From contig JAEUTU010000026.1 in NCBI GenBank assembly GCA_016786925.1, positions 18,044 through 82,043 of the forward strand: a stretch of DNA of 64,000 bases, read 5' to 3'. Within the stretch, counting starts at the first letter, position 1. Each line of letters opens with the position of its first letter. Of the stretch, positions 45,679-59,129 are shown in pieces. The translations under genes were made by a program, and so were the position numbers. The DNA comes from Bacteroidia bacterium (GTDB lineage: Bacteria > Bacteroidota > Bacteroidia > 2-12-FULL-35-15). Below the pieces are notes generated by a model that saw only the letters and a list, made by a program, of their open reading frames with translations, did no database searches and had not been told where the DNA came from.

Positions 45679-45832
45679 TTCTGTTTTATTTATTGTGTTA
45701 TTGAATTTCTATTGATCTGATTCGGGCGCGAAATTAGAAAAAATATCTATACAAAATATGTTAACAGGGCTTAATTCGATAATTTTCGCCTTATTATTTA
45801 TCGTAAATTTGTAAGCATTAAAAATTGAATAC

Positions 45833-46849
45833 GTGAACGCAAAACAAGTAAAAGAGGTAAAAAGTTTATTAGCTAAACCAAAACATATAGTTATCGTTAC
45901 CCATTGGTCGCCCGATGGCGATGCCATGGGCTCTTCCCTTGGATTATACAATTACCTGATCCAGAAAGATCATAAAGTAACCGTGATCACTCCAAACGAT
46001 TATCCGGCTTTCCTTTCCTGGATGCCGGGCGATAAAAAAGTGATCGATTTTTCAAAGAAAGCGGCTACTGCTAAAAAGCTGGTTGCGCAAGCGGAGCTTA
46101 TCTTTTGTCTCGACTTTAATTCATTAAAACGTATTGATAAACTGGGTGATGAAGTGGCTAAAAGCAAAGCCATCAAATTCATTATCGATCATCACTTGCA
46201 GCCCGAAGATTTTGCAAAATACATGTTGCACAATGTGGGCGCTTGCTCCACCTGCGAACTGATCTATGAGTTCATTTCATTGATGGGCGACAAAAAACTT
46301 TTGAATAAGGACATTGCGAATTGTTTGTACACGGGCATCATGACCGATACCGGCTCTTTCCGTTTTCCTTCTACCACTACCAAAACACATGCGATCATTG
46401 CCGACCTCATGAAAGCAGGAGCAGAGAACTCCGAGATCCACAACCGCATCTACGATGGTAATACCGTTGATAAGATCAAGCTATTGGGCTATTGCCTAGG
46501 CGAGAAGCTTACTGTGATGAAAGAGCTCAATACCGCTTATTTCAGCTTAACAGATAAAGAACTTAAGAAATTCAATTATAAAAAAGGCGATACCGAAGGT
46601 GTGGTGAATTATGCACTATCCATTGAAGGGATCAAGTTTGCAGCCTTCTTTGTAGAACGCGATGGCATCATCAAAACATCCTTCCGTTCCAAAGGAAGCT
46701 TTAATGTGAATCTGTTTGCCCGTGCTCATTTTGAAGGTGGCGGCCATGCCAATGCTGCCGGTGGAATGAGTCCATTGAGCATGAAGGATACACTCAAAAA
46801 ATTTGTGTCCATCGTTCCAACCTATAAAAAAGAACTGACAAAAAAATAG
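45833..46849 (+). CDS. nrnA: DHH-family oligoribonuclease / pAp phosphatase NrnA
   Basis: DHH motif (FIIDHH). C-terminal DHHA1 with the GGGH motif (FEGGGHANAAGG). 338 aa. Confidence 0.8.
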   Translation: MNAKQVKEVKSLLAKPKHIVIVTHWSPDGDAMGSSLGLYNYLIQKDHKVTVITPNDYPAFLSWMPGDKKVIDFSKKAATAKKLVAQAELIFCLDFNSLKRIDKLGDEVAKSKAIKFIIDHHLQPEDFAKYMLHNVGACSTCELIYEFISLMGDKKLLNKDIANCLYTGIMTDTGSFRFPSTTTKTHAIIADLMKAGAENSEIHNRIYDGNTVDKIKLLGYCLGEKLTVMKELNTAYFSLTDKELKKFNYKKGDTEGVVNYALSIEGIKFAAFFVERDGIIKTSFRSKGSFNVNLFARAHFEGGGHANAAGGMSPLSMKDTLKKFVSIVPTYKKELTKK

Positions 46850-46852
46850 ATC

Positions 46853-47395
46853 ATGCTGAGTTTAAATAAATACATTGTTTTACTGGTTGGTTCTTCCTTG
46901 CTGTTGGGTGCATCCTGCGGAAATGATAGCAGCAAAGCTACCCAGCAAACAAATATTCAAAGCAAAGAGTTTCAGGACAAACTCATTGAAGCCAATAAAA
47001 TGTATGTGAAGCGCGAAAGCGATGAGATCGATCAGTACGTGAAACACCGTGGCTGGAACATGATCACCACCGGAACCGGATTACGTTACATGATCGTGAC
47101 ACAAGGTAAAGGTGAGCTGGCAAAGCCCGAGCAATTGGCCAAAGTAAATTACAAAGTAAGTTTACTGGATGGCACTGTTTGTTATACCTCCGAAAAGAAC
47201 GGACCGAAAGAATTCATGGTAGGGAAGGACAATGTAGAAAGCGGCCTGCACGAAGGCATTCAATACATGCATGTAGGCGATAAAGCCATTTTGATATTGC
47301 CATCTCATTTGGCACATGGACTTTTAGGCGATGATAACAAGATCCCGGCTAAATCATCGGTGATGTATGAATTAGAATTATTGTCATTGCGATAA
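46853..47395 (+). CDS. FKBP-type peptidyl-prolyl isomerase lipoprotein (GldI-like size)
   Basis: Lipobox LLLGASCGN. FKBP core at the C-terminus (YELELLSL). Confidence 0.7.
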   Translation: MLSLNKYIVLLVGSSLLLGASCGNDSSKATQQTNIQSKEFQDKLIEANKMYVKRESDEIDQYVKHRGWNMITTGTGLRYMIVTQGKGELAKPEQLAKVNYKVSLLDGTVCYTSEKNGPKEFMVGKDNVESGLHEGIQYMHVGDKAILILPSHLAHGLLGDDNKIPAKSSVMYELELLSLR

Positions 47396-47396
47396 G

Positions 47397-48299
47397 ATGA
47401 AGCGTATTTCCCTTGTACTTTCTTTTTTACTCCTGCTGGGTTTCAGTTCCTGTTTCAGAGATTCCGACTTTGAAGGATATACCAAGACCGATACCGGCCT
47501 GCATTATAAATTATTGATGATAGGCGAGGGGAAACGTAAACCTACTTTTGGCGAGTTACTTCAACTGAATATCACTTACAAAACCATGTCCGATTCGGTG
47601 TTTCTGGATTCTTATTCCATCAATGAAACAGGCATGGTTATTTTGCCATTCAATCATTCTTCCTTCAAAGGCAGTTTTGAAGAAGGTTTGCTGAACATGT
47701 GCGAGGGCGACAGCGTTTCCTTTATTGTGGATGCCAAACCCTTGTTTAAGGAGTTTTTTAAAGCCGAATTGCCTTACTTTTTGAAGGAAGGCGACAAAGT
47801 AAAAATGGAAGTGAAGCTGAATCGTATCCTGGATCAAAAACAATATGAGCAGGAAATTGTTCGGTATAAAGAACTGTTGGAAGACCGTGATATTGAGGAA
47901 CAACGGATCCTGCAGGTGTATCTGGATACCATACAGGGAACATTTACCCCGCTGGAAAACGGCATGTATTATCAGCCGGTACAACAGGGTGCAGGCGATC
48001 TGGTAGAAAGTGGCGATCTGGTAAGGGTACATTTTAAGGGCAGTTTCCTGAACGGACGCACCTTTGAGTCCACTTATGAGCGTAACCAGCCCATGGAATT
48101 TACATTCGGGGAACAGGGGCAGGTGATCAAAGGATTGGAAGCTGCAATAAGTTTATTAAATGAGGGTGCACAAGCAAAATTTATCATACCTTCGCACCTT
48201 GCTTACGGAGAAAATGGATCATCCACGGGTGTCATTCCTCCTTATACAACTTTAGTGTACGAAATTGAATTACTTAAATTAACAAAACATAATAATTGA
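47397..48299 (+). CDS. FKBP-type PPIase lipoprotein, two FKBP-like domains
   Basis: Lipobox GFSSCF. The C-terminal domain carries the FKBP signature (IKGLEAAISLLNEGAQAKFIIPSHLAYG). Confidence 0.7.
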   Translation: MKRISLVLSFLLLLGFSSCFRDSDFEGYTKTDTGLHYKLLMIGEGKRKPTFGELLQLNITYKTMSDSVFLDSYSINETGMVILPFNHSSFKGSFEEGLLNMCEGDSVSFIVDAKPLFKEFFKAELPYFLKEGDKVKMEVKLNRILDQKQYEQEIVRYKELLEDRDIEEQRILQVYLDTIQGTFTPLENGMYYQPVQQGAGDLVESGDLVRVHFKGSFLNGRTFESTYERNQPMEFTFGEQGQVIKGLEAAISLLNEGAQAKFIIPSHLAYGENGSSTGVIPPYTTLVYEIELLKLTKHNN

Positions 48300-49255
48300 A
48301 AATGAAGATCTCTAAAAAACTAGTATTTGCATCAGTAGGTGCTGCTTTAATGTTTAGTGCATGCGACAATTCACCATACCCTGGTTACGAAATGTCAGAA
48401 TCAGGTTTGTATTCTCAGTTCTACAATCACGATGAAGCCGGAGTTACTCCAAAAGAAGGTGATGTAGTAAAATTGATCATGTCGTACCGTAACTCAAAAG
48501 ATTCGATCCTATTCGATTCTAAAAAAATGGGTCGTTCTGAAGATGGAACCATCGAGTTCCCTTTAACTAAATCTACATTTAAAGCAAGTTTTGAAGAGGC
48601 ATTAGGAACAATGGCAGTAGGTGATAGCGCTAGCTTCAAGATCAGCGCTGACTCTGTTTACTTAAAAACATTCATGGTGCAGGAATTACCTGCCTACATC
48701 GAAAAAGGAAGTATGTTGACTTTCGAAGCGAAGTTGGTAAAGATCACCAGCAAAGAAGAAGCAATGAAAGAACAACAAAAACGTCAGGAAGAACAAAAAG
48801 TGATGATGGAATTGGCGAAGAACGAAGAAGGAAAGATCCTGGCAAAATATTTAGAGGATAACAAGATCACTGCTAAGCCAACAGCTAGCGGATTGATCTA
48901 TGTGGAAACGAAGAAAGGAAGCGGTTCAAAACCAACAGCCGGATCAATGGTGAAAGTAAACTATGTAGGGATGTTATTGGATGGAACCATCTTCGATACA
49001 AGTTTAGAAGACAGAGCAAAAGAAGCAGGATTGTATGACGAAAGAAGACCATACGAACCATTTGAATTTGCTTTAGGTACAGGTCAGGTGATCCCGGGTT
49101 GGGACGAAGGTATTGCATTAATGACACCGGGTTCAAAAGGTAAATTGATCATTCCTTCTGAATTAGCGTATGGTGCTCAAGGTGGCGGACCGATCCCTCC
49201 ATTCTCTTCATTAGTGTTTGAAGTAGAATTGATCAGCTTTTCAGCTGCTAAATAA
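48296..49255 (+). CDS. FKBP-type PPIase lipoprotein
   Basis: Lipobox MFSACDN. C-terminal FKBP domain (VIPGWDEGIALMTPGSKGKLIIPSELAYG). Confidence 0.7.
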   Translation: MKMKISKKLVFASVGAALMFSACDNSPYPGYEMSESGLYSQFYNHDEAGVTPKEGDVVKLIMSYRNSKDSILFDSKKMGRSEDGTIEFPLTKSTFKASFEEALGTMAVGDSASFKISADSVYLKTFMVQELPAYIEKGSMLTFEAKLVKITSKEEAMKEQQKRQEEQKVMMELAKNEEGKILAKYLEDNKITAKPTASGLIYVETKKGSGSKPTAGSMVKVNYVGMLLDGTIFDTSLEDRAKEAGLYDERRPYEPFEFALGTGQVIPGWDEGIALMTPGSKGKLIIPSELAYGAQGGGPIPPFSSLVFEVELISFSAAK

Positions 49256-49329
49256 TTTGGATTAAAAATTGATAATATCGGGGGCTGACTAAAATAGTCA
49301 GCCCTTTTTAAAACCTTAAAGATCATATC

Positions 49330-50532
49330 ATGAAGAAAGTATCCATTCTTTTCCTTGCCTTATTCAGCATCACGGCTGTGGCTCAGGAGAAAGTAAAAAA
49401 AGACGAGAATACAGTAAAAACAGTTAAAGTAAAAAAGCCGAAGACAATGAAAACAGCATCAGGTTTGGAATATACCATCACCGAAAAAGGAAATGGTAAA
49501 CGTCCACAAATTGGAGATAAAGTAAAAGTACACTACACCGGAAAATTATTGAATGACACCGTATTCGATAGCTCTGTAAAAAGAGGACAACCATTTGAAT
49601 TCAAATTAGGTGCCGGACAAGTGATCAAAGGATGGGATGAAGCATTTCAATTGTTGGATGTAGGCGATAAAGCTACTATCAAATTACCAGCTGATATTGC
49701 TTATGGTAACAGAGCAATGGGTTCTATTCCTCCAAATTCTACTTTGATATTTGATGTGGAATTGATCGACTTTAAAGAAGGTGTTCGTCCTTGGGATGGA
49801 AAAGGGAAAGATACTATCACTACTGCAAGTGGTTTGAAATACATCATCATCAAAGAGAACAAAGCAGGTGAGCAAGTAAAAGCAGGCGCACAGGCAACAG
49901 TTCATTACAGCGGTTATTTCAAAGATGGAAAGATGTTCGATTCTTCTGTGGAGCGCGGACAACCATTCAAAGTAAAAGTGGGTAAAGGACAAGTGATCAA
50001 AGGATGGGACGAAGGATTGGCTTTATTGCGTAAAGGTGAAAAAGCAAAATTATTCATTCCTTATCAATTAGGATATGGCGAGCAAGGTTATGGACCAATA
50101 CCTGCAAAAGCAGAATTGATCTTTGATGTGGAGATAGTAGATGTGCAGGAAGCAATGGTGCCTGTATTGTACGATGTATCTAAATTAGAAGCAAAGAAAA
50201 CAGCGTCCGGCTTAACATACTATGAAGTAAAAAGAAGCGGAAGCACCGTGAAGGCCGAAGCAGGTAAAACAGTGAAAGTACATTACTCCGGTTATTTGGC
50301 CGATGGAAAAATGTTCGATTCTTCCATTGAAAGAGGAGAGCCGATTGAGTTTCCATTAGGACAAGGCATGGTGATCCCGGGATGGGAGGAAGGTATTGCC
50401 TTAATGAATGTAGGTGATAAATTACGTTTGGTGATCCCGTATTACTTAGCGTATGGCGAACAAGGAAGAGAACCGATCATTCCTGCAAAAGCCGACCTTA
50501 CATTTGATGTAGAGTTAGTGGATGTAAAATAA
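49330..50532 (+). CDS. Secreted protein with three tandem FKBP-type PPIase domains
   Basis: Three internally similar repeats, each with V(K/T)VHY(T/S)G.L.DG..FDSS..RG.P.EF.LG.G.VI.GW.E. Confidence 0.8.
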   Translation: MKKVSILFLALFSITAVAQEKVKKDENTVKTVKVKKPKTMKTASGLEYTITEKGNGKRPQIGDKVKVHYTGKLLNDTVFDSSVKRGQPFEFKLGAGQVIKGWDEAFQLLDVGDKATIKLPADIAYGNRAMGSIPPNSTLIFDVELIDFKEGVRPWDGKGKDTITTASGLKYIIIKENKAGEQVKAGAQATVHYSGYFKDGKMFDSSVERGQPFKVKVGKGQVIKGWDEGLALLRKGEKAKLFIPYQLGYGEQGYGPIPAKAELIFDVEIVDVQEAMVPVLYDVSKLEAKKTASGLTYYEVKRSGSTVKAEAGKTVKVHYSGYLADGKMFDSSIERGEPIEFPLGQGMVIPGWEEGIALMNVGDKLRLVIPYYLAYGEQGREPIIPAKADLTFDVELVDVK

Positions 50533-50545
50533 GATTGATTATTAC

Positions 50546-50585
50546 ATAAAAAAAGCCTGAGCATTTGCTCAGGCTTTTTTGTTTT
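50546..50585. terminator. Rho-independent terminator; copy 1 of a perfect 40-bp repeat
   Basis: ataaaaaaagcctgagcatttgctcaggcttttttgtttt, identical to 52509..52548. Confidence 0.7.
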
Positions 50586-50618
50586 ATTAGAAACGCTATA
50601 ATCAACAGTTTAATGAAC

Positions 50619-51611
50619 CTAATCTTGATTGTTAAACTCTTGTATTAATTCCTTTAAAGCCTCTACGTCTAAATATGAAATAGTATCAATTCTTCCTTCT
50701 GGAGTAAACGTGATTTTTTTTCCCGGTGTTAATATGATTTTTTCTTCTTTATTTATAGTTTCAACTTCTAATTCTCCCTCTATTAAGAAAATTTCAGTGT
50801 AATTTTTGTCTGTGATATTTATCTTAAGCGTGGTTCCTCTAACACAGGCACAAGCTGCAGGTGTTCTTATATCTAATTTACATTTTCGTTTAATTGCTTC
50901 AAATAGGACTTGATCGTTTTTAACGATTGCCCATAATGCCCCTTTTATAAGTTTACTATAATCTAATCCTTCATTATTGGGAGTAAATGTTGTGTTTTCA
51001 TTTAGCTTGATTTTGTTTCCATTGTCATTTGAAAGCATTATTTCGGTACCTTTTCCTGTGGATAAAGTATCCTTTTTATTTAATGTGATATTCTCTATTT
51101 CCGAACAGTTGTAATATGTCTTCCCTACCCCATCTTTATAAATTGTTAATCCATTGTTTTTTATCTTACAATTAATAATTCTGTAAGAATTTGCAATTAG
51201 TTCTTTTTTATTGTTTGTAGGCAATCCTTTTAACTGTTGTTTTGTGTTTTGATGGTTAATTGCATTGATTGAATCTTGTGCATTTTGTCGGATCTTTTTG
51301 CGTGATTTATCTATTGCAGCTTGTTTGGCTTCTTCTTTAGCAACCCATTGATCAATTTGGTCGTTCAATTGAAATAATAGACCAAAAACTAATTGCTGTT
51401 CTTGATTGTTGTTGATCAATGGTGTTGTTGCTGATTGTCCCTGTGATTTGTTGTTATAGGGACAGTCAAGTGCGTGTTGGCCATTCATCTGTTTACAAGA
51501 AACACATTGAGCTCCGCTAACCGGTGGAACAGATTGTGAAAACACGTTTGTCTGGTTTGTAAAAGACAAACAGATCAATAGAAATGTTCTTAAAATGATT
51601 TTTTTGTACAT
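50619..51611 (-). CDS. Secreted FecR-domain-like protein
   Basis: Signal peptide starting at MYKKIIL. The C-terminal CVRGTTLKI...IFLIEGELEV resembles the FecR beta-sandwich motif (VRGT.F). Gln/Asn-rich linker. Confidence 0.45.
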   Translation of the reverse strand: MYKKIILRTFLLICLSFTNQTNVFSQSVPPVSGAQCVSCKQMNGQHALDCPYNNKSQGQSATTPLINNNQEQQLVFGLLFQLNDQIDQWVAKEEAKQAAIDKSRKKIRQNAQDSINAINHQNTKQQLKGLPTNNKKELIANSYRIINCKIKNNGLTIYKDGVGKTYYNCSEIENITLNKKDTLSTGKGTEIMLSNDNGNKIKLNENTTFTPNNEGLDYSKLIKGALWAIVKNDQVLFEAIKRKCKLDIRTPAACACVRGTTLKINITDKNYTEIFLIEGELEVETINKEEKIILTPGKKITFTPEGRIDTISYLDVEALKELIQEFNNQD

Positions 51612-51619
51612 ATAATTTG

Positions 51620-52429
51620 CTAATTGAGATTTATCTTCCATTCATTGATTTTATCTTCCGATTCTGCTTTGTCCTCTGCATTTGGTTCAACCATTAAATA
51701 ACGTTTCATATTATAAATGGCCATTTGATAGTTTTCTGTTAGTGCATAAATCAAAGCCAAATTGTAATAAATTGGCGGATAGGATACTAGGTTGATATTG
51801 ATCGCTTCTTCATAAAGCGCTATTACTTTGTAATATTGTTTTTGGTCAAAAAATACATTTGCTTGTACCATTAATTCTCTTTGTTTTTCAATGTCACTAG
51901 CATTTTTAGTGGCTGTTTTTATTTTAAGACCAAAATCAAGAAGTAAACTGTCAAGCATTTTCGATTTGGCTGCTTTTTCTTTTTCTTTTAAAGAATTTTC
52001 TCTTAGAATAACAACATTGTCAGCAAATTTTTTGATGTTTTCGCCTTCTTGAAAAGTGGGTTCAGTGAAAAATAAATTTCCTAAAACTACACTTATGGGG
52101 TAGTTATCTACAAACTTGTCTAGCAGTGAGGTCTTATAAGTAATAGCTTTTGATTTTTCTCCTTCAGAAAGTATCTTAACTTTTCCGCCAATACTAACCT
52201 TATACTTAGTAGGTTTTGCAATGATGATCAACGTGTCTGCTTTTATTTCTACTTTTTCTATTTGAATTAAATAATTAAATGTAGTCGCATTAATTTTCTC
52301 ATCAACTCTTATCTTATTGCTTAATATTAATTCTGTTAATTCAGATTTGGCTCTTGTGTAGGTCCCGATTTGGCCAAAAAAATTGGAATGATATAGAAAA
52401 ATGAATACGATCAATAATATTCTATTCAT
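51620..52429 (-). CDS. Secreted hypothetical protein with C-terminal TPR-like helices
   Basis: Signal peptide. The C-terminal YYKVIALYEEA...YYNLALIYALTENYQMAIYNMKRYL resembles a TPR pair. Confidence 0.4.
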   Translation of the reverse strand: MNRILLIVFIFLYHSNFFGQIGTYTRAKSELTELILSNKIRVDEKINATTFNYLIQIEKVEIKADTLIIIAKPTKYKVSIGGKVKILSEGEKSKAITYKTSLLDKFVDNYPISVVLGNLFFTEPTFQEGENIKKFADNVVILRENSLKEKEKAAKSKMLDSLLLDFGLKIKTATKNASDIEKQRELMVQANVFFDQKQYYKVIALYEEAININLVSYPPIYYNLALIYALTENYQMAIYNMKRYLMVEPNAEDKAESEDKINEWKINLN

Positions 52430-52508
52430 GTTCAGGAATTTAGCGTTTATGTCTTTTAGTAATACAAATGTACACCAGGTCAGATTTGATAAAAATGAGG
52501 AAAGTCAT

Positions 52509-52548
52509 ATAAAAAAAGCCTGAGCATTTGCTCAGGCTTTTTTGTTTT
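52509..52548. terminator. Rho-independent terminator; copy 2 of the perfect 40-bp repeat
   Basis: Identical to 50546..50585. Contains the TGA stop of the DUF3820 gene. Confidence 0.7.
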
Positions 52549-52756
52549 TTAGAGGTTTTAAGAGATCTTCCAAGCCATTGAGTTTGATCACATACATGGT
52601 TTCCAGTAGCACACCCAATTTACCTTCCGGAAAACCTTTTCGATTGAACCATTCCAAATATGAAACAGGCAAATTACAAAGCACAGTGCCCTGATACCTC
52701 CCAAAAGGCATTTTCATTTCTACAAGAGAGAGTAGGAGTTCGGGGTTAAGGGTCAT
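52532..52756 (-). CDS. DUF3820-like small protein
   Basis: MPFGRYQGTVLCNLPVSYLEWFNRKGFPEGKLGVLLETMYVIKLNGLE matches my memory of the DUF3820 family consensus. Confidence 0.55.
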   Translation of the reverse strand: MTLNPELLLSLVEMKMPFGRYQGTVLCNLPVSYLEWFNRKGFPEGKLGVLLETMYVIKLNGLEDLLKPLKNKKA

Positions 52757-52763
52757 TCTGTTA

Positions 52764-53108
52764 TTATTTTATTTCTAATAGTCCATATTCTTCTAGCGCA
52801 TCGCTCCAGATGTTGTCTTTATTTAGTCGAATTAATTCTAATACAATTTTAGTGATTTTCTCTTGGTTTAAATTGTCTTCTCCAATTTCGTGAATGAATT
52901 TTTTTGATAATTGTTCGTCTAAGCATTTCGCATTGTTGGTAATATTGCAACACCCATAACCATCAAATGAAATTCTACATAAATAAATACGTCTATCTGC
53001 GGTACAATTGAAATCCATATATACCGAACTATCCAAACAGCCTAGATAGAAGTCAGCCTTTCTGCTTTCTGGCATCGTGGTTTTAAAGAAATCAAAGTTC
53101 GGTTTCAT
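52764..53108 (-). CDS. Hypothetical Cys-containing cytoplasmic protein
   Basis: 114 aa ORF with good coding periodicity in the island. No motif recognised. Confidence 0.35.
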   Translation of the reverse strand: MKPNFDFFKTTMPESRKADFYLGCLDSSVYMDFNCTADRRIYLCRISFDGYGCCNITNNAKCLDEQLSKKFIHEIGEDNLNQEKITKIVLELIRLNKDNIWSDALEEYGLLEIK

Positions 53109-53128
53109 GTATATTATGTTTTATAAAT

Positions 53129-54535
53129 CTATTGACCGTACTTAGTTTTTACGCTATTTGAAAATGACCCCGAGATATTATTGTTTTTGTAGTTTACTTG
53201 AACTTCATATGTTTTGTCTTTCTTAAAATCATCAGAATATATAATGAATGAATTTAGTCCTTTTTTTGCTTTTGTTTCTGAAGTAGCGACAATTCTTTCA
53301 TTGTCAGGGTCTTGGATATAAATTTCAACATCCGCTTTTTCTATAAAATAAACAATTACTTCAATCTCGTTTTTGCTTTTGCTGCTTATGTCTCTAATAT
53401 TATTTTTATTGGTTATGTATGTACGTTCTTGTTTTTTCCCTTTTTCAATTCCTTTTATTTTGCTGTAAGTTATTACTCCTTGCACATTTCCAAATTCCAT
53501 GAATGGCATTGGGAAGAAAGGTAAAATGTAATATCTGTAGGGATCGTTATTTGCTTGAACGATTTTCTGATAAGAATAACCATTGATAGTATCATATGTA
53601 ACTCCTTGCAAAAACAAGCTTTTTTCATTCTTAGTTTCAATGAGCTTTAATTCGGTTTTGTAGTCCTTAAAAGGTACAAATAGTTGATTGCCTACATAAT
53701 AACCGCTGTCAGTAATAGAAATTAGCAGTTCTTCTGGTTTTTCGTAAGAGCCGCTTAGATAGTTGTATCCTTCAACTTCTAATTTTAACGTGCTTTTTTC
53801 ATTGACAATTGTATCACTTACGTACTTAATATTTTTGAATTGTTTGTCCTCATATTCGGCCATATTGGTAGTGTCATTGTACCATTTTCTACGATAAAAT
53901 AGCTGAATTTCATCTCCTTTTTCTATGTCAAACTTTGTTGAAGCAGTGTAGCTATTTTGTAGCCCTTTTGTTATGTCGTTATAATTATTACCCATTAATT
54001 GTTTGGTGTAAAACTCTCCGTTGCTCGAAACTGCAATCGTTTGAATATCCGGAATAATTACAAGGTAGATTTCAGTATTTTCCTTGTGATAATATTTTCT
54101 TGGAGTTTTGTTAGATGGTATTAAACTATCTCTCGGGTAACTGCTTCGTGTATCAAGGAATTCGAGTGAAATTTGAGTTTCTTTCCCAAAGATCGTCCCA
54201 GTCTGTTCTTTATTATTTTTATAGTTTATTTTATGAATAATATTTTTATTCTTGTCAAGCAAGCAATATATATCTTTTGAAAAGGATTCGTAGAATGTTT
54301 TCGTCTCCTTTTTATCTGAATAGTCTTTGAAATCTTCTGTTTGAAATTTTCTGTATTTTATTTTGTCAATTATTGTGTCTTGCAAGTCAGTTCTTGTTTG
54401 CAAGCCAATAAATTCATTCTTATTGTCGAAATACGTGGTTCTGTAATAAAGCTTAGAATTGGCAAGTTCCTTTCTGGATTGTCCAAAAGAGAAAACGACA
54501 ACTAAAAGTAAAATTGTTGTGAATATATGTTTCAT
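53129..54535 (-). CDS. Secreted hypothetical protein
   Basis: 468 aa, signal peptide, Tyr/Asn/Lys-rich. Probably beta-rich. Confidence 0.4.
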   Translation of the reverse strand: MKHIFTTILLLVVVFSFGQSRKELANSKLYYRTTYFDNKNEFIGLQTRTDLQDTIIDKIKYRKFQTEDFKDYSDKKETKTFYESFSKDIYCLLDKNKNIIHKINYKNNKEQTGTIFGKETQISLEFLDTRSSYPRDSLIPSNKTPRKYYHKENTEIYLVIIPDIQTIAVSSNGEFYTKQLMGNNYNDITKGLQNSYTASTKFDIEKGDEIQLFYRRKWYNDTTNMAEYEDKQFKNIKYVSDTIVNEKSTLKLEVEGYNYLSGSYEKPEELLISITDSGYYVGNQLFVPFKDYKTELKLIETKNEKSLFLQGVTYDTINGYSYQKIVQANNDPYRYYILPFFPMPFMEFGNVQGVITYSKIKGIEKGKKQERTYITNKNNIRDISSKSKNEIEVIVYFIEKADVEIYIQDPDNERIVATSETKAKKGLNSFIIYSDDFKKDKTYEVQVNYKNNNISGSFSNSVKTKYGQ

Positions 54536-54591
54536 GCTTAATGTTTTCTGGAATTTTCGACACTTAATACTATCTCTTTCTTTAGTTACTC

Positions 54592-55524
54592 TTACTTCAA
54601 TCCTTTATTTAAGAATTCAATAAATTCCTGTGTATTGTTTGTATAACCTATTTCTGAAAGAACTTTTCCGCTTTCATTGATAATACAGAAATAGGGTTGA
54701 TAATTGGTTTTAAACTGCTCTGTTTGAAGTTTGATGAATTTTGCACCTACTGTTGATCCTGTAGCAATGTCTTCGGTTTTATCGTCAGTATAGGCAATGA
54801 AATAATTAAACTTCTCAGCTATTATGGATTTTACTTGATTGTCTATCAATACCCGGTCTTCTATTTTTCTGGCATTTACACATGCATAACCTGAAAAATA
54901 AAGGAGAACCTTTTTGCCATTTCCTTTTCCTGTTTTTATAGCACTTTCAAGGTCAGTGAGTTTAGTGAATTCTAATTTTTCGGGTAGAGTAGAGGCTGTG
55001 TTGTCTTTCGATAATGAGTAAAGAGCGAATGCCTGTTTGTATGTTATGTTTTGAAAATCATTTGATTGAATGAATTTTTTAAAAGGCTCTAATTCTGATG
55101 GAGGCAGACCTGCTTGAAGTAGCAGTTCTTTGTCCTTTTCAAATACTTCTATGCTTACAATTTTGTTCTCCAGCGTTTTAGAAGCAATGATTGCATTGCG
55201 CAATTTTGAATAATTCTCTGATTGTTTGAAGGAATTAAAGCTTTTTAGAATTGTATGGTAGGTTATTAGTTTCTCTTCAGTTGCATGCTGCATCAAAATA
55301 CTTGCAATCATTGGACCGGAAAGCAACTCACTATCAATAGAATCCAAATTGCCGCAACTTTTAAGAATATCGAAATCATTATTTATGGAGTCATTGGGTT
55401 CAGTAACAGCATGACTAACAAAATAAGGAATCTTATCCAGCACTTGTTTGCAGTCTTTTTGAGCCTGACTAAAGAGCGGTGCAGAGAATAATAGGATGAA
55501 TAATATGAGTTTTATCTTTTTCAA
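54592..55524 (-). CDS. Secreted protein with C-terminal thioredoxin-like fold domain (non-canonical active site)
   Basis: Signal peptide. The C-terminal KVLLYFSGYACVNARK...YFCIINESGKVL resembles a TlpA/DsbD-like thioredoxin fold with CVNA in place of CxxC. Confidence 0.4.
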   Translation of the reverse strand: MKKIKLILFILLFSAPLFSQAQKDCKQVLDKIPYFVSHAVTEPNDSINNDFDILKSCGNLDSIDSELLSGPMIASILMQHATEEKLITYHTILKSFNSFKQSENYSKLRNAIIASKTLENKIVSIEVFEKDKELLLQAGLPPSELEPFKKFIQSNDFQNITYKQAFALYSLSKDNTASTLPEKLEFTKLTDLESAIKTGKGNGKKVLLYFSGYACVNARKIEDRVLIDNQVKSIIAEKFNYFIAYTDDKTEDIATGSTVGAKFIKLQTEQFKTNYQPYFCIINESGKVLSEIGYTNNTQEFIEFLNKGLK

Positions 55525-55584
55525 TAATGTGTTGTTTGTTTTTGTTTAACGTTTTGCACCAGTACGCTGTTAGTGGCTGTTTTT

Positions 55585-56337
55585 TTATGCATTGAATTTT
55601 TCTCCAGTCGCAGTCTGAATTGTTGGAATTGCAAATATTAATAAACTTAATGCAATACAGTCTAGCTGTTCCCGTGTAATTAAAAGCATCCCCCCTTTGT
55701 CGAATGTGATTTCTTCATCAAATGTTTTTAAAACTAATCCTTCGCCTTCTCCAAGAGGTCCAGGTTTCATTACTTCATATCCTGCCGTTGATGCAAGTCC
55801 CATTCTTTTATAGCGTATAACTCGATCTGCTTTCGCAATGCCTTTGTGATGCTCCAGTCCATTTCTAATATCGAAATAGCTTTGGATCGACTCTTTGTAG
55901 ATTTGATGTTTGGGTTTATCTAACAGAAGTTTCAATTTGCTAGGAATGTTCAAAGAACGGTCTGTGGAGACATTCAACAGATGCTCTTCAAATTTATTTT
56001 GTAGAAGTGCATTAACTTCTTCCAAAGTCGTTTGAGGTGGAATCGTAATTTTTTCAGCCTTCAATCGCAAAATCGCAATTAGGTTGTCCATATAATCTTG
56101 AAAGGAGCCGATTATAGATTTAAAACATTTGTTAATTTCTCTTTGTTTCAAAAAGTCTACTGGAGGTACTCCAATTTCTGAGATAGTAAATCCTTGTTTT
56201 AGAATATATTTTCTGTTATTATAATTAGGCTGTGAGATTGCGTCATATGTGATTTGCAAAGCAGTCAAATCGCTTCCAATTTGTCCGCGTAGTTTGGACT
56301 CATATATGCTTAAGTCTATGTCGATTTTTGCTTCCAT
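55585..56337 (-). CDS. Uncharacterised cytoplasmic protein with HEPN-like RN-x3-H motif (gene 2 of pair)
   Basis: 250 aa with no signal peptide or TM segment. Contains FDIRNGLEHHKG. Separated by only 21 nt from the upstream gene. Confidence 0.4.
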   Translation of the reverse strand: MEAKIDIDLSIYESKLRGQIGSDLTALQITYDAISQPNYNNRKYILKQGFTISEIGVPPVDFLKQREINKCFKSIIGSFQDYMDNLIAILRLKAEKITIPPQTTLEEVNALLQNKFEEHLLNVSTDRSLNIPSKLKLLLDKPKHQIYKESIQSYFDIRNGLEHHKGIAKADRVIRYKRMGLASTAGYEVMKPGPLGEGEGLVLKTFDEEITFDKGGMLLITREQLDCIALSLLIFAIPTIQTATGEKFNA

Positions 56338-56358
56338 TCGAACGCCTGAAATATTGTT

Positions 56359-57060
56359 TTAAGTTGTACTGTTTATAGAATGGACAGAAGTTATAAAAGT
56401 GTATTTGTTTATTAATTCAGGAACTGCAATTATCGTTTCTATTTCATTTGTCTTCACCTTTTCAATTATTCTTGCGTGAATTTTTTCTACAAATGTTCCG
56501 AAACCAAATATGTTTACAAAAGTTGTGTCATCTGTTCTGTGAAAGTCTTTTCCTAAAATATCTCCATTCCATAAAGTTGTAGGCAGTTTAACAACTTCAT
56601 TTTCATTGTCTGGGTCGGGATACACAGTAAATTTACAACGTTGAAGGTCATTTAATCGTTCATTGTCTGGAATGTTTAATAAATTAAAGTCATGAGTGAA
56701 TGCGTTTCTTAATGCAATCAAGGCATTTAATTTTCTTATGTCATTCTCAATAAAATCAAATCCGAATGTTTCTATTGCGAATTTTATTTTATTGTATTTA
56801 GGTGATATTTCTTGGCCTGGATTTTTAAAACAACTACCAATTTGATCAAGTACCGTAAAATAACCGATGGCTCCCAACCAATGACCAGCAAATCCGCATT
56901 CAGCATCGGGATTGTATTTTCCTGTTAGTTTGTCTCGCTTAGTGAAAAGCCGGCTTTCTCTTAACCCAGCATTGATGGTAGAATATCGTTGAGAACCTTG
57001 ATAATCAAAAGTCTCGCAGGTAAGATATTGAAATATATAATTTGTTTCTTCTTCTGTCAT
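56359..57060 (-). CDS. Uncharacterised cytoplasmic protein with HEPN-like RN-x3-H motif (gene 1 of pair)
   Basis: 233 aa with no signal peptide. Contains ALIALRNAFTHDFNLL, resembling the Rx4-6H motif of HEPN/Abi nucleases. Confidence 0.4.
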   Translation of the reverse strand: MTEEETNYIFQYLTCETFDYQGSQRYSTINAGLRESRLFTKRDKLTGKYNPDAECGFAGHWLGAIGYFTVLDQIGSCFKNPGQEISPKYNKIKFAIETFGFDFIENDIRKLNALIALRNAFTHDFNLLNIPDNERLNDLQRCKFTVYPDPDNENEVVKLPTTLWNGDILGKDFHRTDDTTFVNIFGFGTFVEKIHARIIEKVKTNEIETIIAVPELINKYTFITSVHSINSTT

Positions 57061-57181
57061 AAAATTGCCACTAACTAATGTATAAGACTGATAAAATCAT
57101 CCTTATCCTGCTAATAGGTTTGCAAAAGATGTATTAATTCAAATATAGCAAAATCAAATAAATAAAAATTAGGAGAGATAC

Positions 57182-57228
57182 AAAAACAAAAAAGCCTTCC
57201 ATTTGGAAGGCTTTTGCGGTCCGGACGG
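57182..57228. repeat. 47-bp perfect direct repeat, copy A (terminator hairpin plus 12 nt identical to the tRNA-Asp 3' end)
   Basis: aaaaacaaaaaagccttccatttggaaggcttttgcggtccggacgg, identical to 59021..59067. Confidence 0.9.
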
Positions 57229-57380
57229 TTTTCTTTTGTATGGCATATATCCTTGCTTGAAAAATTTGTCATTACCTTAAAAAAAACAGGAAGATCTCCG
57301 GCTTTTTAATTTTTTATAAATGAAAATAATGTTTGTTATTGTAAACAAAATTATTATATTTGTATATTATAATAAACATT

Positions 57381-57704
57381 ATGGAACAAAGAAAAGCTAT
57401 ATTATTACCTTCCTTGAATAAAGTTCTTAAAGAATTGGGGGAGAATATTAAACTGGCCAGGCTGAGAAGAAAGCTCAGTGCAGCGCAGGTGGCTGAAAGA
57501 GCAAGGATAAGTAGAGCAACGCTTTGGCATGTAGAAAAAGGTTCTCCCAGTGTTGCAATGGGTATATACGCACAAGTATTGTTTGTACTGGGGTTAGATA
57601 AAGATCTGTTGAAAGTAGCTGCTGACGATACCCTGGGAAGAAAGTTGCAGGATGCTGAATTAATGATCAAAGAGCGGGCTCCTAAAAAGAAAAAAGATGA
57701 GTGA
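57381..57704 (+). CDS. hipB: HipB-like XRE-family HTH antitoxin
   Basis: HTH (LSAAQVAERARISRATLWHVEKG). 8-nt overlap with the downstream hipA. ATG at 57381 preferred over the TTG at 57360. Confidence 0.7.
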   Translation: MEQRKAILLPSLNKVLKELGENIKLARLRRKLSAAQVAERARISRATLWHVEKGSPSVAMGIYAQVLFVLGLDKDLLKVAADDTLGRKLQDAELMIKERAPKKKKDE

Positions 57705-58962
57705 AAAAAAAGAGATATTGGTTTATGCGCATTGGGAGGCATTTAAAACGCCTGTTTTAATGGGCTTGCTTTCTGCTATCCCGGCAAAAGGTAAAGAAGT
57801 GTTTTCTTTTGAATATTCAAAAGAGTGGTTACGATCAGATTTTACGTATATGATAGATCCTGATCTGCAACTGTACTCTGGGCGCTATTTCCCGACTGAG
57901 GAAAAATTAAACTTTGGTGCATTTTTAGACTCCTGTCCGGATAGATGGGGAAGAGTGTTAATGGATCGCAGGGAAGCTGCAATGGCGCGGAAAGAAGGAC
58001 GTAAAATGAAACACTTGCTGGAGTCGGATTATTTATTGGGCGTGTTTGATGGTCATAGAATGGGAGCACTCCGGTTCAAAACAAATGAAAATGGAGCATT
58101 CCTGAATGACGATAAAAGCATGGCGGCTCCTCCTTTCACTTCACTTAGGGAGTTAGAACAGGCGAGTCTCAAATTTGAAGAGGACGATGCCGGTGATGAG
58201 GACTATTTAAAATGGATCAATTTATTGATCGCTCCGGGCTCTTCACTGGGAGGAGCAAGGCCAAAAGCAAGTGTGATAGACCCGCATGGGAGTTTATGGA
58301 TCGCAAAATTTCCAAGTATAAAAGATGAAAAAAATATAGGAGCATGGGAAATGGTAGTAAATACAATGGCAAGAAAGGCCGGATTAAATGTTGCTCAAGG
58401 TGATGTTTATCAATTTAAAAGTAAATATCATACCTATCTTACTAAACGATTTGACAGAACAAATAAGGGAGAGCGAATTCATTTTGCATCGGCAATGACT
58501 TTGTTGGGATATGTGGACGGTGCAGGACATGACGAGGGAGTTAGTTATTTAGAATTGGTAGAATTTATTATGAAATATGGGGCACAGGTAGATGCCGATC
58601 TGGAAGAATTATGGCGCAGGATTGTATTTCATATTTGTGTAAAAAACACAGATGATCATTTACGAAATCATGGTTTTTTATTAACGGATAAAGGTTGGAG
58701 ATTGTCGCCCGCATACGATATTAATCCCAATGAATATGGAACTGGATTGAGTTTGAATATTTCTGAAAAGGATAATGCTCTTGACATTGAACTGGCTTTA
58801 AGTGTTGCCGCATTTTTTAGACTAGACGCAAAGAAGTCGAAGCAGATCGTTGATGAAATAAAAAGTGTTGTAAATAATTGGAGAGAATATGCTAAAACCT
58901 TTGGGATTGGAAAATCTGAACAGGATAGAATGAGTAATGCTTTTTCTTTGACTGATGATTAA
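57697..58962 (+). CDS. hipA: HipA-family serine/threonine kinase toxin
   Basis: 421 aa with N-terminal HipA_N-like and C-terminal HipA_C kinase core (motifs ...ICVKNTDDHLRNHGFLL...). Confidence 0.8.
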   Translation: MSEKKEILVYAHWEAFKTPVLMGLLSAIPAKGKEVFSFEYSKEWLRSDFTYMIDPDLQLYSGRYFPTEEKLNFGAFLDSCPDRWGRVLMDRREAAMARKEGRKMKHLLESDYLLGVFDGHRMGALRFKTNENGAFLNDDKSMAAPPFTSLRELEQASLKFEEDDAGDEDYLKWINLLIAPGSSLGGARPKASVIDPHGSLWIAKFPSIKDEKNIGAWEMVVNTMARKAGLNVAQGDVYQFKSKYHTYLTKRFDRTNKGERIHFASAMTLLGYVDGAGHDEGVSYLELVEFIMKYGAQVDADLEELWRRIVFHICVKNTDDHLRNHGFLLTDKGWRLSPAYDINPNEYGTGLSLNISEKDNALDIELALSVAAFFRLDAKKSKQIVDEIKSVVNNWREYAKTFGIGKSEQDRMSNAFSLTDD

Positions 58963-59020
58963 GAAAAAGGTATTTGCATTATTTTGAGAAGATAGGAGTG
59001 GAGAAAAAAATTACTTTCTT

Positions 59021-59067
59021 AAAAACAAAAAAGCCTTCCATTTGGAAGGCTTTTGCGGTCCGGACGG
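59021..59067. repeat. 47-bp perfect direct repeat, copy B (overlaps the tRNA-Asp 3' end)
   Basis: Identical to 57182..57228. Confidence 0.9.
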
Positions 59068-59129
59068 GACTCGAACCCGCGACCTCTGCCGTGACAGGGC
59101 AGCATTCTAACCAGCTGAACTACCGGACC
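59056..59129 (-). tRNA. tRNA-Asp (anticodon GTC)
   Basis: The reverse complement GGTCCGGTAGTTCAGCTGGTTAGAATGCTGCCCTGTCACGGCAGAGGTCGCGGGTTCGAGTCCCGTCCGGACCG folds as a cloverleaf. The anticodon loop CTGTCAC gives GTC. GTTCGAGTC T-loop. Followed by a terminator hairpin. Confidence 0.9.

What the first reader, a model, noticed from the sequence alone, without database searches (positions are those of the whole stretch)
50586..59055. AT-rich accessory island of about 8.5 kb anchored at tRNA-Asp
From just after the FKBP array terminator to the tRNA-Asp 3' end, base composition drops visibly relative to the flanking housekeeping genes. All the island genes are on the minus strand except hipBA. The gene content is accessory: a FecR-like secreted protein, a TPR secreted protein, DUF3820, orphan secreted proteins, a thioredoxin-fold protein with a degenerate active site, the HEPN-like pair and hipBA. 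tRNA genes are classic island integration sites.
Basis: partly seen in the sequence, partly recalled or inferred. Interest (0 to 1): 0.6.

Follow-up and report, generated by a model that had tools for sequence, protein, structure and literature searches.

The report
Patchwork AT-rich variable region beside tRNA-Asp
The AT-rich stretch is real, but it is a patchwork of at least four small gene modules with separate histories rather than one 8.5-kb island, and only the 1.8-kb hipBA toxin-antitoxin module (which is not AT-rich) carries the repeat signature of insertion at the tRNA gene.

Summary
The composition drop is real. GC is 0.333 over 50586-59055 against 0.391 elsewhere, and genes at 50.6-57.1 kb average 0.321 against 0.392 (p=4e-7). 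It ends near 57.3 kb, and hipBA has background GC. The source is an uncultured Bacteroidia MAG. No recombinase gene lies between 45.8 and 63.7 kb, and no repeat links the FKBP end to the tRNA end.

The only two long perfect direct repeats in the 64 kb sit here:
- A 47-nt pair (57182-57228 and 59021-59067) made of the last 13 nt of tRNA-Asp plus its terminator. It brackets hipBA alone.
- A 40-nt pair (50546-50585 and 52509-52548), the FKBP terminator. It brackets the FecR-like/TPR operon.

Relatives show four modules:
- FKBP-FecR-TPR is inherited together in congeners (82-84% nt), whose homology stops at 52509.
- The o250/o233 pair (55568-57068) recurs at 83% nt in another context.
- A 92%-identical relative keeps repeat-hipBA-repeat but has an unrelated gene in place of o233.
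- hipBA at tRNA-Ser in another MAG has analogous repeats.

Verdict: a mosaic variable region plus an integrase-less, CIME-like hipBA islet. It is a new member of a known kind, of modest interest. No empty site or integrase was seen.

The parts
50546..50585 (+). Copy 1 of 40-nt repeat R: the intrinsic terminator hairpin after the FKBP array.
   Evidence: Perfect 40/40 direct repeat with 52509-52548. Terminator scan, stem of 14 pairs. The hairpin is conserved at this position in congeners L097-L099.
50619..51641 (-). FecR-domain protein with a signal-peptide-like N-terminus (340 aa). GC 0.315.
   Evidence: PF04773, E=1.2e-7. Members at 90% identity or more sit next to the FKBP array in L097-L099.
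51620..52429 (-). TPR protein (269 aa). It overlaps the FecR gene by 22 nt, which suggests an operon. GC 0.298.
   Evidence: TPR_1/TPR_2 hits. The pair is conserved in L097-L099.
52509..52548 (+). Copy 2 of repeat R. It is also the point where homology to congeners stops and where their contigs end.
   Evidence: L099 carries a different hairpin here, and L097, L098 and L099 end at window positions 52497-52517.
52532..52756 (-).
   Evidence: PF12843, E=1.7e-31. NCBI name 'DUF3820 family protein'; singleton at 90% identity.
52764..53108 (-). Orphan 114-aa protein.
   Evidence: No hit in Pfam, NCBIfam, PHROGs or PADLOC. Singleton.
53129..54535 (-). Orphan 468-aa protein with a signal-peptide-like N-terminus. 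GC 0.307.
   Evidence: No family or PDB hit. Singleton. No relative in viral contigs.
54592..55524 (-). 310-aa protein with a signal-peptide-like N-terminus and a weak thioredoxin-like C-terminal domain. The motif is CxxA, not CxxC.
   Evidence: Thioredoxin_7 and Thioredoxin_2 at E about 1e-3, below cut-off. Weak DsbD/DsbH hits. Sequence read.
55585..56337 (-). o250: 250-aa protein of an uncharacterised family with invariant R158 and H163 (RNGLEH). Second gene of the o233-o250 module.
   Evidence: 134 homologues among representatives. Invariant columns. No Pfam, PADLOC or PDB hit. Travels with o233 in L100.
56359..57060 (-). o233: 233-aa protein with an invariant RNAFTH motif (R118, H123). First gene of the module 55568-57068.
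   Evidence: 105 homologues. Invariant columns. HEPN_RiboL-PSP at E=0.024. AF2 pLDDT 94.7 with no PDB fold match. L100 is 83% nt identical over 55568-57068 only.
57063..57181 (-). Conserved 119-nt leader between the displaced tRNA fragment and the variable gene slot. It contains TATATTTG, which resembles a Bacteroidetes -7 element.
   Evidence: 82% identical in L085, where an unrelated 202-aa gene follows it. Homology stops at 57063. The promoter reading is inference from the published Bacteroides consensus TAnnTTTG (own knowledge).
57182..57228 (-). Left copy of the 47-nt repeat: a terminator hairpin (57190-57215) plus a displaced 13-nt tRNA-Asp 3' fragment (57216-57228).
   Evidence: 47/47 identical to 59021-59067. 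Decayed counterpart in L085.
57381..57704 (+). hipB-like HTH antitoxin (107 aa). Its stop overlaps the hipA start by 8 nt.
   Evidence: HTH_31, E=5.6e-10. couple_hipB hit. The 107-aa form is on record.
57697..58962 (+). hipA-family kinase toxin (421 aa). GC 0.389, which is background.
   Evidence: HipA_C, E=3.2e-52. Related to solved HipT/HipA_C chains at E about 1e-8. Thousands of homologues at 70-96% identity across Bacteroidota.
59021..59067 (-). Right copy of the 47-nt repeat: the terminator (59029-59054) plus the last 13 nt of the intact tRNA-Asp.
59055..59129 (-). tRNA-Asp (GTC), intact. Its 3' end faces hipA.
   Evidence: ARAGORN. Rfam RF00005, 68.8 bits.

Best explanation
The span is a mosaic variable region, not a single integrated element. 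It lies between a conserved nrnA-FKBP gene block and tRNA-Asp in an uncultured Bacteroidia genome. It is built from at least four small modules with different histories.

Module 1 (50586-52508) is an AT-rich FecR-like/TPR operon. It is inherited together with the FKBP block in congeners. In this genome it is bracketed by two identical copies of the FKBP terminator.

Module 2 (52509-55567) holds four AT-rich genes: QSregVF_b/DUF3820, two orphans and a protein with a weak thioredoxin-like domain that lacks CxxC. None has a close relative on record.

Module 3 (55568-57068) is a two-gene unit, o233 and o250. Both proteins carry an invariant RNxxxH motif. The unit travels as a block and occupies a slot behind a conserved 119-nt leader. 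A 92%-identical relative has an unrelated gene in that slot.

Module 4 (57229-59020) is a hipBA toxin-antitoxin operon of ordinary GC. It is bracketed by a perfect 47-nt direct repeat made of the last 13 nt of tRNA-Asp plus its terminator.

Only module 4 shows the signature of insertion at the tRNA gene. It encodes no recombinase. It is best read as a non-autonomous or decayed integrative element that keeps attL and attR (CIME-like).

Inferred, not shown: it was inserted by a site-specific integrase supplied in trans or since lost, and it is retained because the toxin-antitoxin pair resists loss.

Shown: the repeats, the module boundaries, the composition, and the recurrence of the modules elsewhere.

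The low GC of modules 1-3 is read as typical accessory or secreted gene composition in this lineage's gene pool, not as the mark of one foreign block (inference).
For: Composition.

Repeats: the only two long perfect direct repeats in 64 kb are the 47-nt and 40-nt pairs.

No recombinase in 45.8-63.7 kb.

Module 1 is conserved with the FKBP block. L097, L098 and L099 are 82-84% nt identical over window 45765-52517. FecR and TPR are low-GC there too, 0.30 against 0.36-0.39.

Module 2 and 3 proteins are singletons at 90% identity, whereas FecR, TPR, HipB and HipA are not.

Module 3: L100 matches only 55568-57068, at 83% nt, next to a Gp49/HTH pair.

Slot variation: L085 is 92% nt identical to window 57063-59057. 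It has repeat-hipBA-repeat and an unrelated 202-aa gene in place of o233.

Independent parallel: in L086, hipBA (81% nt) sits at tRNA-Ser(GCT). It is bracketed by 44-59-nt repeats (86-93%) made of the terminator plus the tRNA 3' end, and there is an extra 17-nt tRNA fragment.

hipA mobility: hipA is 70-96% identical across many Bacteroidota, whereas the best FKBP4 match in the species-representative genome scan is 74%. hipBA GC stays at 0.36-0.39 in hosts of 0.33-0.43.

CIME definition: PMC5704250. tDNA island signature: PMC4383910 abstract.
Against: - No empty site (tRNA-Asp without hipBA) and no excised circle was seen. The only close relative, L085, also carries the insertion.
- No integrase was found, so trans-mobilisation is pure inference.
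- Most of the identity block lies downstream of the tRNA (34 of 47 nt), unlike canonical tDNA islands.
- The second copy of terminator R is unexplained, because congener L099 has FecR-TPR but a different hairpin at that spot.
- The left boundary of the variable part rests on contig ends of three short assemblies.
- The source is a MAG contig.
- Relatives with long contigs are too distant: synteny is scrambled on both flanks.
- The GC-normalised dinucleotide signature does not mark the region as foreign.
Confidence: 0.6

Rival explanations
1. One reading: one 8.5-kb horizontally acquired island integrated at the 3' end of tRNA-Asp and since decayed. The integrase and far att site are lost, and hipBA is its stabilising module.
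For: The region is contiguous, AT-rich, of accessory content and adjacent to the tRNA. Its genes are absent downstream of the FKBP array in family-level relatives.
Against: No tRNA fragment or other repeat lies near 50.6 kb. The displaced fragment sits at 57216-57228, inside the proposed island. FecR-TPR is co-inherited with the FKBP block in congeners. The o250/o233 module moves alone. hipBA composition differs from the rest.
Confidence: 0.1
2. The region is largely native. The low GC reflects weakly constrained secreted or orphan genes. The repeats arose by local processes such as gene conversion between terminators or Campbell-type homologous recombination of short circles. No dedicated mobile-element machinery is involved.
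For: The dinucleotide signature is not an outlier. FecR-TPR is vertically inherited yet equally AT-rich in congeners. There are no mobility genes. The repeats are 100% identical here but 86% in L085, which is compatible with conversion.
Against: hipBA repeats that include a tRNA 3' end recur at a different tRNA in an unrelated MAG. hipA shows an HGT-like distribution. Modules are swapped exactly at gene boundaries between close relatives. Six consecutive proteins are singletons.
Confidence: 0.15
3. A cassette-exchange system uses intrinsic-terminator hairpins (with or without an adjoining tRNA end) as attachment sites. It moves roughly 2-kb cassettes such as hipBA and FecR-TPR by a recombinase encoded elsewhere.
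For: Both perfect repeat pairs contain a complete terminator hairpin and bracket units of similar size, 1839 and 1963 bp. The L086 repeat also spans a terminator. In L087, hipBA lies in an array of modules separated by a repeated 88-nt unit that follows terminator hairpins.
Against: In L087 the hairpins themselves differ between junctions, so the repeat is not the hairpin. FecR-TPR is not a recent insertion. There is no candidate recombinase. There are only three loci. In 1.5 Mb of fetched Bacteroidota DNA, the readable part of the truncated scan listing showed no other exact direct repeat containing a hairpin.
Confidence: 0.1
4. The direct repeats are artefacts of metagenome assembly, for example a loop in the graph formed by a circular element plus an empty chromosomal site.
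For: The source is a MAG. Independent assemblies break at 52.5 kb and at the tRNA end.
Against: L085, from another dataset, has the same repeat-hipBA-repeat with diverged copies, and L086 likewise. An assembler cannot invent a second repeat copy. The repeats are direct, including their asymmetric flanks and loop.
Confidence: 0.05

Closest known systems
tDNA-integrated genomic islands (Islander-type: an island bounded by a regenerated tRNA gene and its displaced 3' fragment, with a tyrosine integrase)
   Same: An intact tRNA-Asp is followed by an insert, and then by a displaced copy of the tRNA 3' end in direct orientation. The insert lies on the 3' side of the tRNA.
   Different: The bounded unit is only 1.8 kb and has no integrase. 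Only 13 nt of the 47-nt identity lie inside the tRNA, and the rest is the downstream terminator. The 8.5-kb span as a whole lacks the signature.
CIMEs (cis-mobilizable elements: decayed ICE/IME that lost integration and transfer genes but kept attL and attR; PMC5704250)
   Same: attL- and attR-like repeats are retained around cargo with no recombination or transfer genes. They sit at a tRNA 3' end, and L086 shows extra tRNA fragments that suggest accretion.
   Different: No partner ICE or IME is seen. The cargo is a single TA operon. Mobilisation is untested. CIMEs are described mainly in Firmicutes.
HipBA type II toxin-antitoxin modules
   Same: An HTH antitoxin gene overlaps a downstream HipA_C kinase gene. 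The kinase loop reads ...NTDDHLRNH..., a DxHxxN pattern.
   Different: It is distant from E. coli HipA (NCBIfam YjjJ-type hit at 38 bits; solved HipT/HipA_C chains at E about 1e-8). No Pfam family was matched at E<=0.01 in the N-terminal 180 residues. Activity is untested.
HEPN-domain RNases (Rx4-6H motif), e.g. Pfam HEPN_RiboL-PSP
   Same: o233 and o250 each have an invariant R-N-x-x-x-H in a helix. They sit as an adjacent pair in an accessory context beside TA modules.
   Different: The Pfam hit is below threshold (E=0.024, 15 bits against 28.4). There is no PADLOC hit. A confident model has no Foldseek match in the PDB. The two families are not demonstrably related to each other (hhalign probability 4%).
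Integron cassette arrays and CALINs
   Same: Small promoterless-looking modules are separated by hairpin-containing repeats, and TA cassettes are common cargo in such arrays (own knowledge).
   Different: No IntI is present. As read by eye, the hairpins are perfect-stem terminators with T-runs rather than attC sites with R''/R' boxes and bulged bases. The genes have their own leaders.

Membership tests
tDNA-integrated genomic island | An intact (regenerated) tRNA gene at one end. | tested here: met
   tRNA-Asp(GTC) at 59055-59129.
tDNA-integrated genomic island | A displaced tRNA 3' fragment in direct repeat at the other end of the island. | tested here: not met
   Not met for the 8.5-kb span: no copy lies near 50.6 kb even with 3 mismatches. 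Met only for the 1.8-kb hipBA unit, with the fragment at 57216-57228.
tDNA-integrated genomic island | An integrase gene inside the island. | tested here: not met
   Every listed ORF of 100 aa or more at 50.6-59.1 kb except one antisense ORF over hipB (57314-57742), plus the 74-aa QSregVF_b gene, was scanned with Pfam, NCBIfam, PHROGs and PADLOC. No recombinase was found. The flanks are also clean.
tDNA-integrated genomic island | Presence or absence polymorphism (an empty site) among close relatives. | tested here: inconclusive
   The only close relative covering the site (L085, 92% nt) also has hipBA. Other relatives are too distant or their contigs too short.
CIME (cis-mobilizable element) | Retains attL and attR. 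| tested here: met
   A 47/47-nt direct repeat flanks hipBA.
CIME (cis-mobilizable element) | Lacks integration and transfer genes. | tested here: met
   Only hipB and hipA lie between the repeats.
CIME (cis-mobilizable element) | Derives from, and can be mobilised by, a related ICE/IME integrase. | not testable with these tools
   The rest of the genome is not available and no integrase was seen.
HipBA type II toxin-antitoxin | A HipA_C kinase domain in the toxin. | tested here: met
   PF07804, E=3.2e-52, 177.7 bits against a cut-off of 30.5.
HipBA type II toxin-antitoxin | An upstream, overlapping HTH antitoxin gene. | tested here: met
   HTH_31, E=5.6e-10, with an 8-nt overlap at 57697-57704.
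HipBA type II toxin-antitoxin | Growth arrest by the toxin, neutralised by the antitoxin. | not testable with these tools
   This needs an experiment.
HEPN superfamily | A conserved Rx4-6H motif. | tested here: met
   o233 R118 and H123 are invariant in 61 sequences. o250 R158 and H163 are invariant in 43 sequences.
HEPN superfamily | Recognised HEPN fold or profile membership. | tested here: inconclusive
Integron cassette array | An IntI integrase and attC sites. | tested here: not met
   No integrase was found. The repeats are perfect-stem terminators with T-runs.

The most novel reading that the evidence does not exclude
hipBA, and perhaps other roughly 2-kb accessory modules in Bacteroidota, may belong to a class of recombinase-less cassettes. 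These would be inserted and exchanged at the junction of a gene's 3' end and its terminator (tRNA-Asp here, tRNA-Ser in L086, a repeated 88-nt unit in L087). They would leave 40-90-nt direct repeats and be driven by an unidentified recombinase acting in trans. That would be a cassette system distinct from integrons and from classical tDNA islands.
Probability: 0.12. Interest if true: 0.6.

Novelty: new member of a known kind. Interest (0 to 1): 0.3.

Why it matters
It shows how a plausible call of 'AT-rich island at a tRNA' can merge several unrelated events. The true tRNA-linked insertion here is a minimal toxin-antitoxin islet with no integrase, and the AT-rich part is a patchwork of swappable modules. 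If the repeat-bracketed hipBA cassettes at different tRNA genes prove mobile, they would be a compact example of trans-mobilised TA spread in environmental Bacteroidota. The o233/o250 pair is an uncharacterised, motif-bearing two-gene module that could be tested as a toxin or defence system.

Tried and rejected
- Exact look-up of window FKBP4 and HipA: nothing on record. The same was true for P0001.
- Genome-contig scan anchored on FKBP4: 80 loci. The upstream nrnA-FKBP synteny is conserved, but nothing to the right of 50.6 kb is found downstream in any of them and no tRNA-Asp is present. Relatives are too distant for an empty-site test.
- Right-flank anchor (m266): homologues at 51-52% sit after NUDIX/ECF-sigma genes.
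- Metagenome-contig scan with HipA: only 2 loci.
- Viral-contig scans with HipA, the o233 profile and o468: nothing.
- megablast of the whole span against plasmids and phages: no match.
- Search for degenerate extra att copies: none.
- PADLOC, PHROGs and NCBIfam scans: no defence, phage or mobility hits beyond HTH and HipA.
- Profile-profile comparison of the o233 and o250 families: probability 4%.
- PDB sequence searches for both families and for o468: nothing.
- Rfam scan: only the tRNA passes threshold. The sRNA and leader hits are terminator look-alikes below cut-off.
- Assembly-artefact idea: rejected because independent assemblies show diverged copies of the same repeats.
- Scan of 1.5 Mb of fetched loci for other exact direct repeats: the listing was truncated and dominated by a repetitive coding gene in L025. 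Beyond the L087 88-nt unit, the readable part showed no further terminator-containing pair.

Full report
**Observation**

The composition drop is real and statistically solid.
- GC over 50586-59055 is 0.333 against 0.391 for the rest of the window. This is the lowest value of any 8.47-kb window.
- The 1-kb bins from 51-57 kb are 0.31-0.35.
- The tetranucleotide distance to the window average is 0.26-0.29 here and 0.13-0.21 elsewhere.
- The seven genes between 50.6 and 57.1 kb average GC 0.321 and GC3 0.276. The 52 other ORFs average 0.392 (sd 0.026) and 0.386. Mann-Whitney p is 3.9e-7 for GC and 2.5e-6 for GC3.

Two qualifications apply.
- The dip ends near 57.3 kb. The 500-bp bins at 57.5-58.3 kb are 0.40-0.43 and hipA is 0.389. 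The tRNA-proximal part is therefore not AT-rich.
- The GC-normalised dinucleotide signature of the region (48.8) is within the range of other windows, which reach 53. The anomaly is essentially A+T content.

Other points check out.
- tRNA-Asp(GTC) lies at 59055-59129 on the minus strand, with its 3' end facing the region.
- The flanks are nrnA-like DHH/DHHA1 plus four FKBP genes on the left. On the right are an unknown membrane protein, an Rce1-like protease, Peptidase_S13, a thioesterase and DUF4349.
- The source is an NCBI MAG annotated 'Bacteroidia bacterium', on an 86-kb contig.

**Anatomy**

No integrase, transposase or other recombinase is encoded anywhere between 45.8 and 63.7 kb.

The only two long perfect direct repeats in the whole 64 kb both lie in this region.
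- The 47-nt pair is at 57182-57228 and 59021-59067. It consists of the last 13 nt of tRNA-Asp plus the 34 nt downstream, which include the terminator hairpin. It brackets exactly the hipBA operon, a unit of 1839 bp.
- The 40-nt pair is at 50546-50585 and 52509-52548. It is the FKBP-array terminator and brackets the FecR-like/TPR operon, a unit of 1963 bp.

No further copy of the tRNA 3' end exists, even with three mismatches. Nothing therefore ties the FKBP end of the span to the tRNA.

**Relatives**

Family-level genomes (FKBP4 at 67-74% aa) keep nrnA-FKBP1-4. Downstream they carry entirely different genes and no tRNA-Asp. Homologues of the right-flank pair (51-52% aa) sit behind NUDIX/ECF-sigma genes. 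Four closer sequences are informative.

1. L097, L098 and L099 are 82-84% nt identical to window 45765-52517.
   - They carry nrnA, the FKBP array, the same terminator hairpin, FecR and TPR.
   - All three contigs end at window positions 52497-52517.
   - L099 shows a different hairpin where the window has the second terminator copy.
   - FecR-TPR is therefore inherited with the FKBP block. It is as AT-rich there as here, 0.30 against 0.36-0.39. The second terminator copy marks the point where homology ends.

2. L085 is 92% nt identical to window 57063-59057.
   - It has the same repeat-hipBA-repeat arrangement, with repeat copies that have diverged (86%).
   - Its homology stops at 57063, three bases from the o233 start codon.
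   - Behind the shared 119-nt leader it carries an unrelated 202-aa gene.

3. L100 matches the window only over 55568-57068, at 83% nt. That is exactly o250 plus o233. Its context is different, next to a Gp49/HTH toxin-antitoxin pair.

4. L086 is a different MAG whose hipBA is 81% nt identical.
   - There hipBA lies at tRNA-Ser(GCT) in the same geometry.
   - It is bracketed by 44-59-nt repeats (86-93%) made of the terminator plus the tRNA 3' end.
   - It also has an extra 17-nt tRNA fragment.

The six proteins from QSregVF_b/DUF3820 to o233 are singletons at 90% identity. FecR, TPR, HipB and HipA are not.

HipA has thousands of homologues at 70-96% identity across Bacteroidota. The best match to the housekeeping FKBP4 in the species-representative genome scan is 74%. 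hipBA GC stays at 0.36-0.39 in hosts of 0.33-0.43. Both points indicate horizontal spread.

**Interpretation**

The span is a mosaic of at least four modules.
- Module 1 is FecR-TPR (50586-52508).
- Module 2 is a unique AT-rich block of four genes (52509-55567).
- Module 3 is the o250/o233 unit (55568-57068), sitting in a variable slot behind a conserved leader.
- Module 4 is hipBA (57229-59020).

Only hipBA carries the tDNA-insertion signature of a regenerated tRNA plus a displaced 3' fragment (PMC4383910 abstract). Because it has attL- and attR-like repeats but no recombination genes, it fits the definition of a cis-mobilizable, decayed element (PMC5704250).

Several steps are inferred, not shown. 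These are integration by an integrase in trans or since lost, retention through toxin-antitoxin addiction, and a promoter in the 119-nt leader (TATATTTG, like the Bacteroides TAnnTTTG element, from my own knowledge).

The hipBA insertion predates the split from L085. Even so, the window's repeats are 47/47 identical, which suggests homogenisation or re-integration.

**The o233/o250 pair**

- Both families have an invariant R-N-x-x-x-H motif.
- o233 gives a sub-threshold HEPN_RiboL-PSP hit, E=0.024.
- Its AlphaFold model is very confident, pLDDT 94.7.
- PADLOC is silent.
- The two families are not demonstrably related to each other.
- In L101 an o233 homologue pairs with a different protein that also has an RNxxxH motif.

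'HEPN-like' is therefore plausible but unproven.

**Unresolved points**

- Why the FKBP terminator is duplicated 40/40 at 52509.
- Why the hipBA identity block lies mostly outside the tRNA (34 of 47 nt here, about 40 of 44 in L086).
- Whether any element here is still mobile.
- In L087, hipBA lies in an array of modules separated by an 88-nt repeated unit that follows terminator hairpins. This keeps alive, at low probability, the idea of a wider cassette-exchange mechanism.
- The assembly-artefact explanation is unlikely, because independent assemblies show diverged versions of the same repeats.

**Verdict**

The feature is a mosaic variable region plus a minimal, integrase-less hipBA islet at tRNA-Asp. 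It is a new member of known kinds, of modest interest.

Noticed in passing
L087 3580-3668, 5068-5150, 7849-7937, 12697-12785 (also L088-L093): In a JGI Bacteroidota contig carrying a 79%-identical hipA, hipBA and neighbouring small modules are separated by copies of a roughly 88-nt unit. Two copies are 49/49 identical. Each copy lies just after a different terminator hairpin. The unit reads as a mini-ORF (VDFTDKISNQLLKDIE..LS.LKRYISSH*). It looks like accretion at a repeated attachment sequence.
   Followed up: partly
L085 2668-2704 versus 824-860; window 57190-57215 and 59029-59054: The right repeat copy in L085 has the terminator loop flipped (CCAAATGG) relative to its own left copy and to both window copies (CCATTTGG). 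It looks as if the hairpin had inverted.
   Followed up: no
window 55569-55577 and 57067-57075: A 9-nt inverted repeat (GTTAGTGGC / GCCACTAAC) sits exactly at the two ends of the o250-o233 module shared with L100. It may be chance, and it is not conserved in L100.
   Followed up: partly
window 57063-57181: A 119-nt leader is conserved with L085 (82%). It carries TATATTTG, which resembles a Bacteroidetes -7 element. It sits ahead of whichever gene fills the slot: o233 here, an unrelated 202-aa membrane-anchored protein in L085.
   Followed up: partly
window 45833-50532; L001-L080: The nrnA-like DHH/DHHA1 gene followed by tandem FKBP-type PPIase genes with signal-peptide-like N-termini (four in the closest relatives, the last with three FKBP domains) is syntenic across many Bacteroidota. 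Synteny always breaks right after the last FKBP gene.
   Followed up: partly
L101 10001-11444: A 68%-identical o233 homologue is paired not with o250 but with an unrelated 211-aa protein that also has an R-N-x-x-x-H motif (LRNNASHF). This suggests o233 works with interchangeable partners.
   Followed up: no
L086 9322-9338 and 7481-7494 / 9280-9293: Besides the outer repeats, the tRNA-Ser hipBA locus has an extra perfect 17-nt tRNA-Ser 3' fragment. It also has an inner 14-nt direct repeat hugging hipBA. Together these hint at more than one insertion event at that site.
   Followed up: no
window 57326-57382: The region just upstream of hipB is an extended AT-rich palindrome, and it matches L086 in both orientations. 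It is presumably the HipB operator.
   Followed up: no
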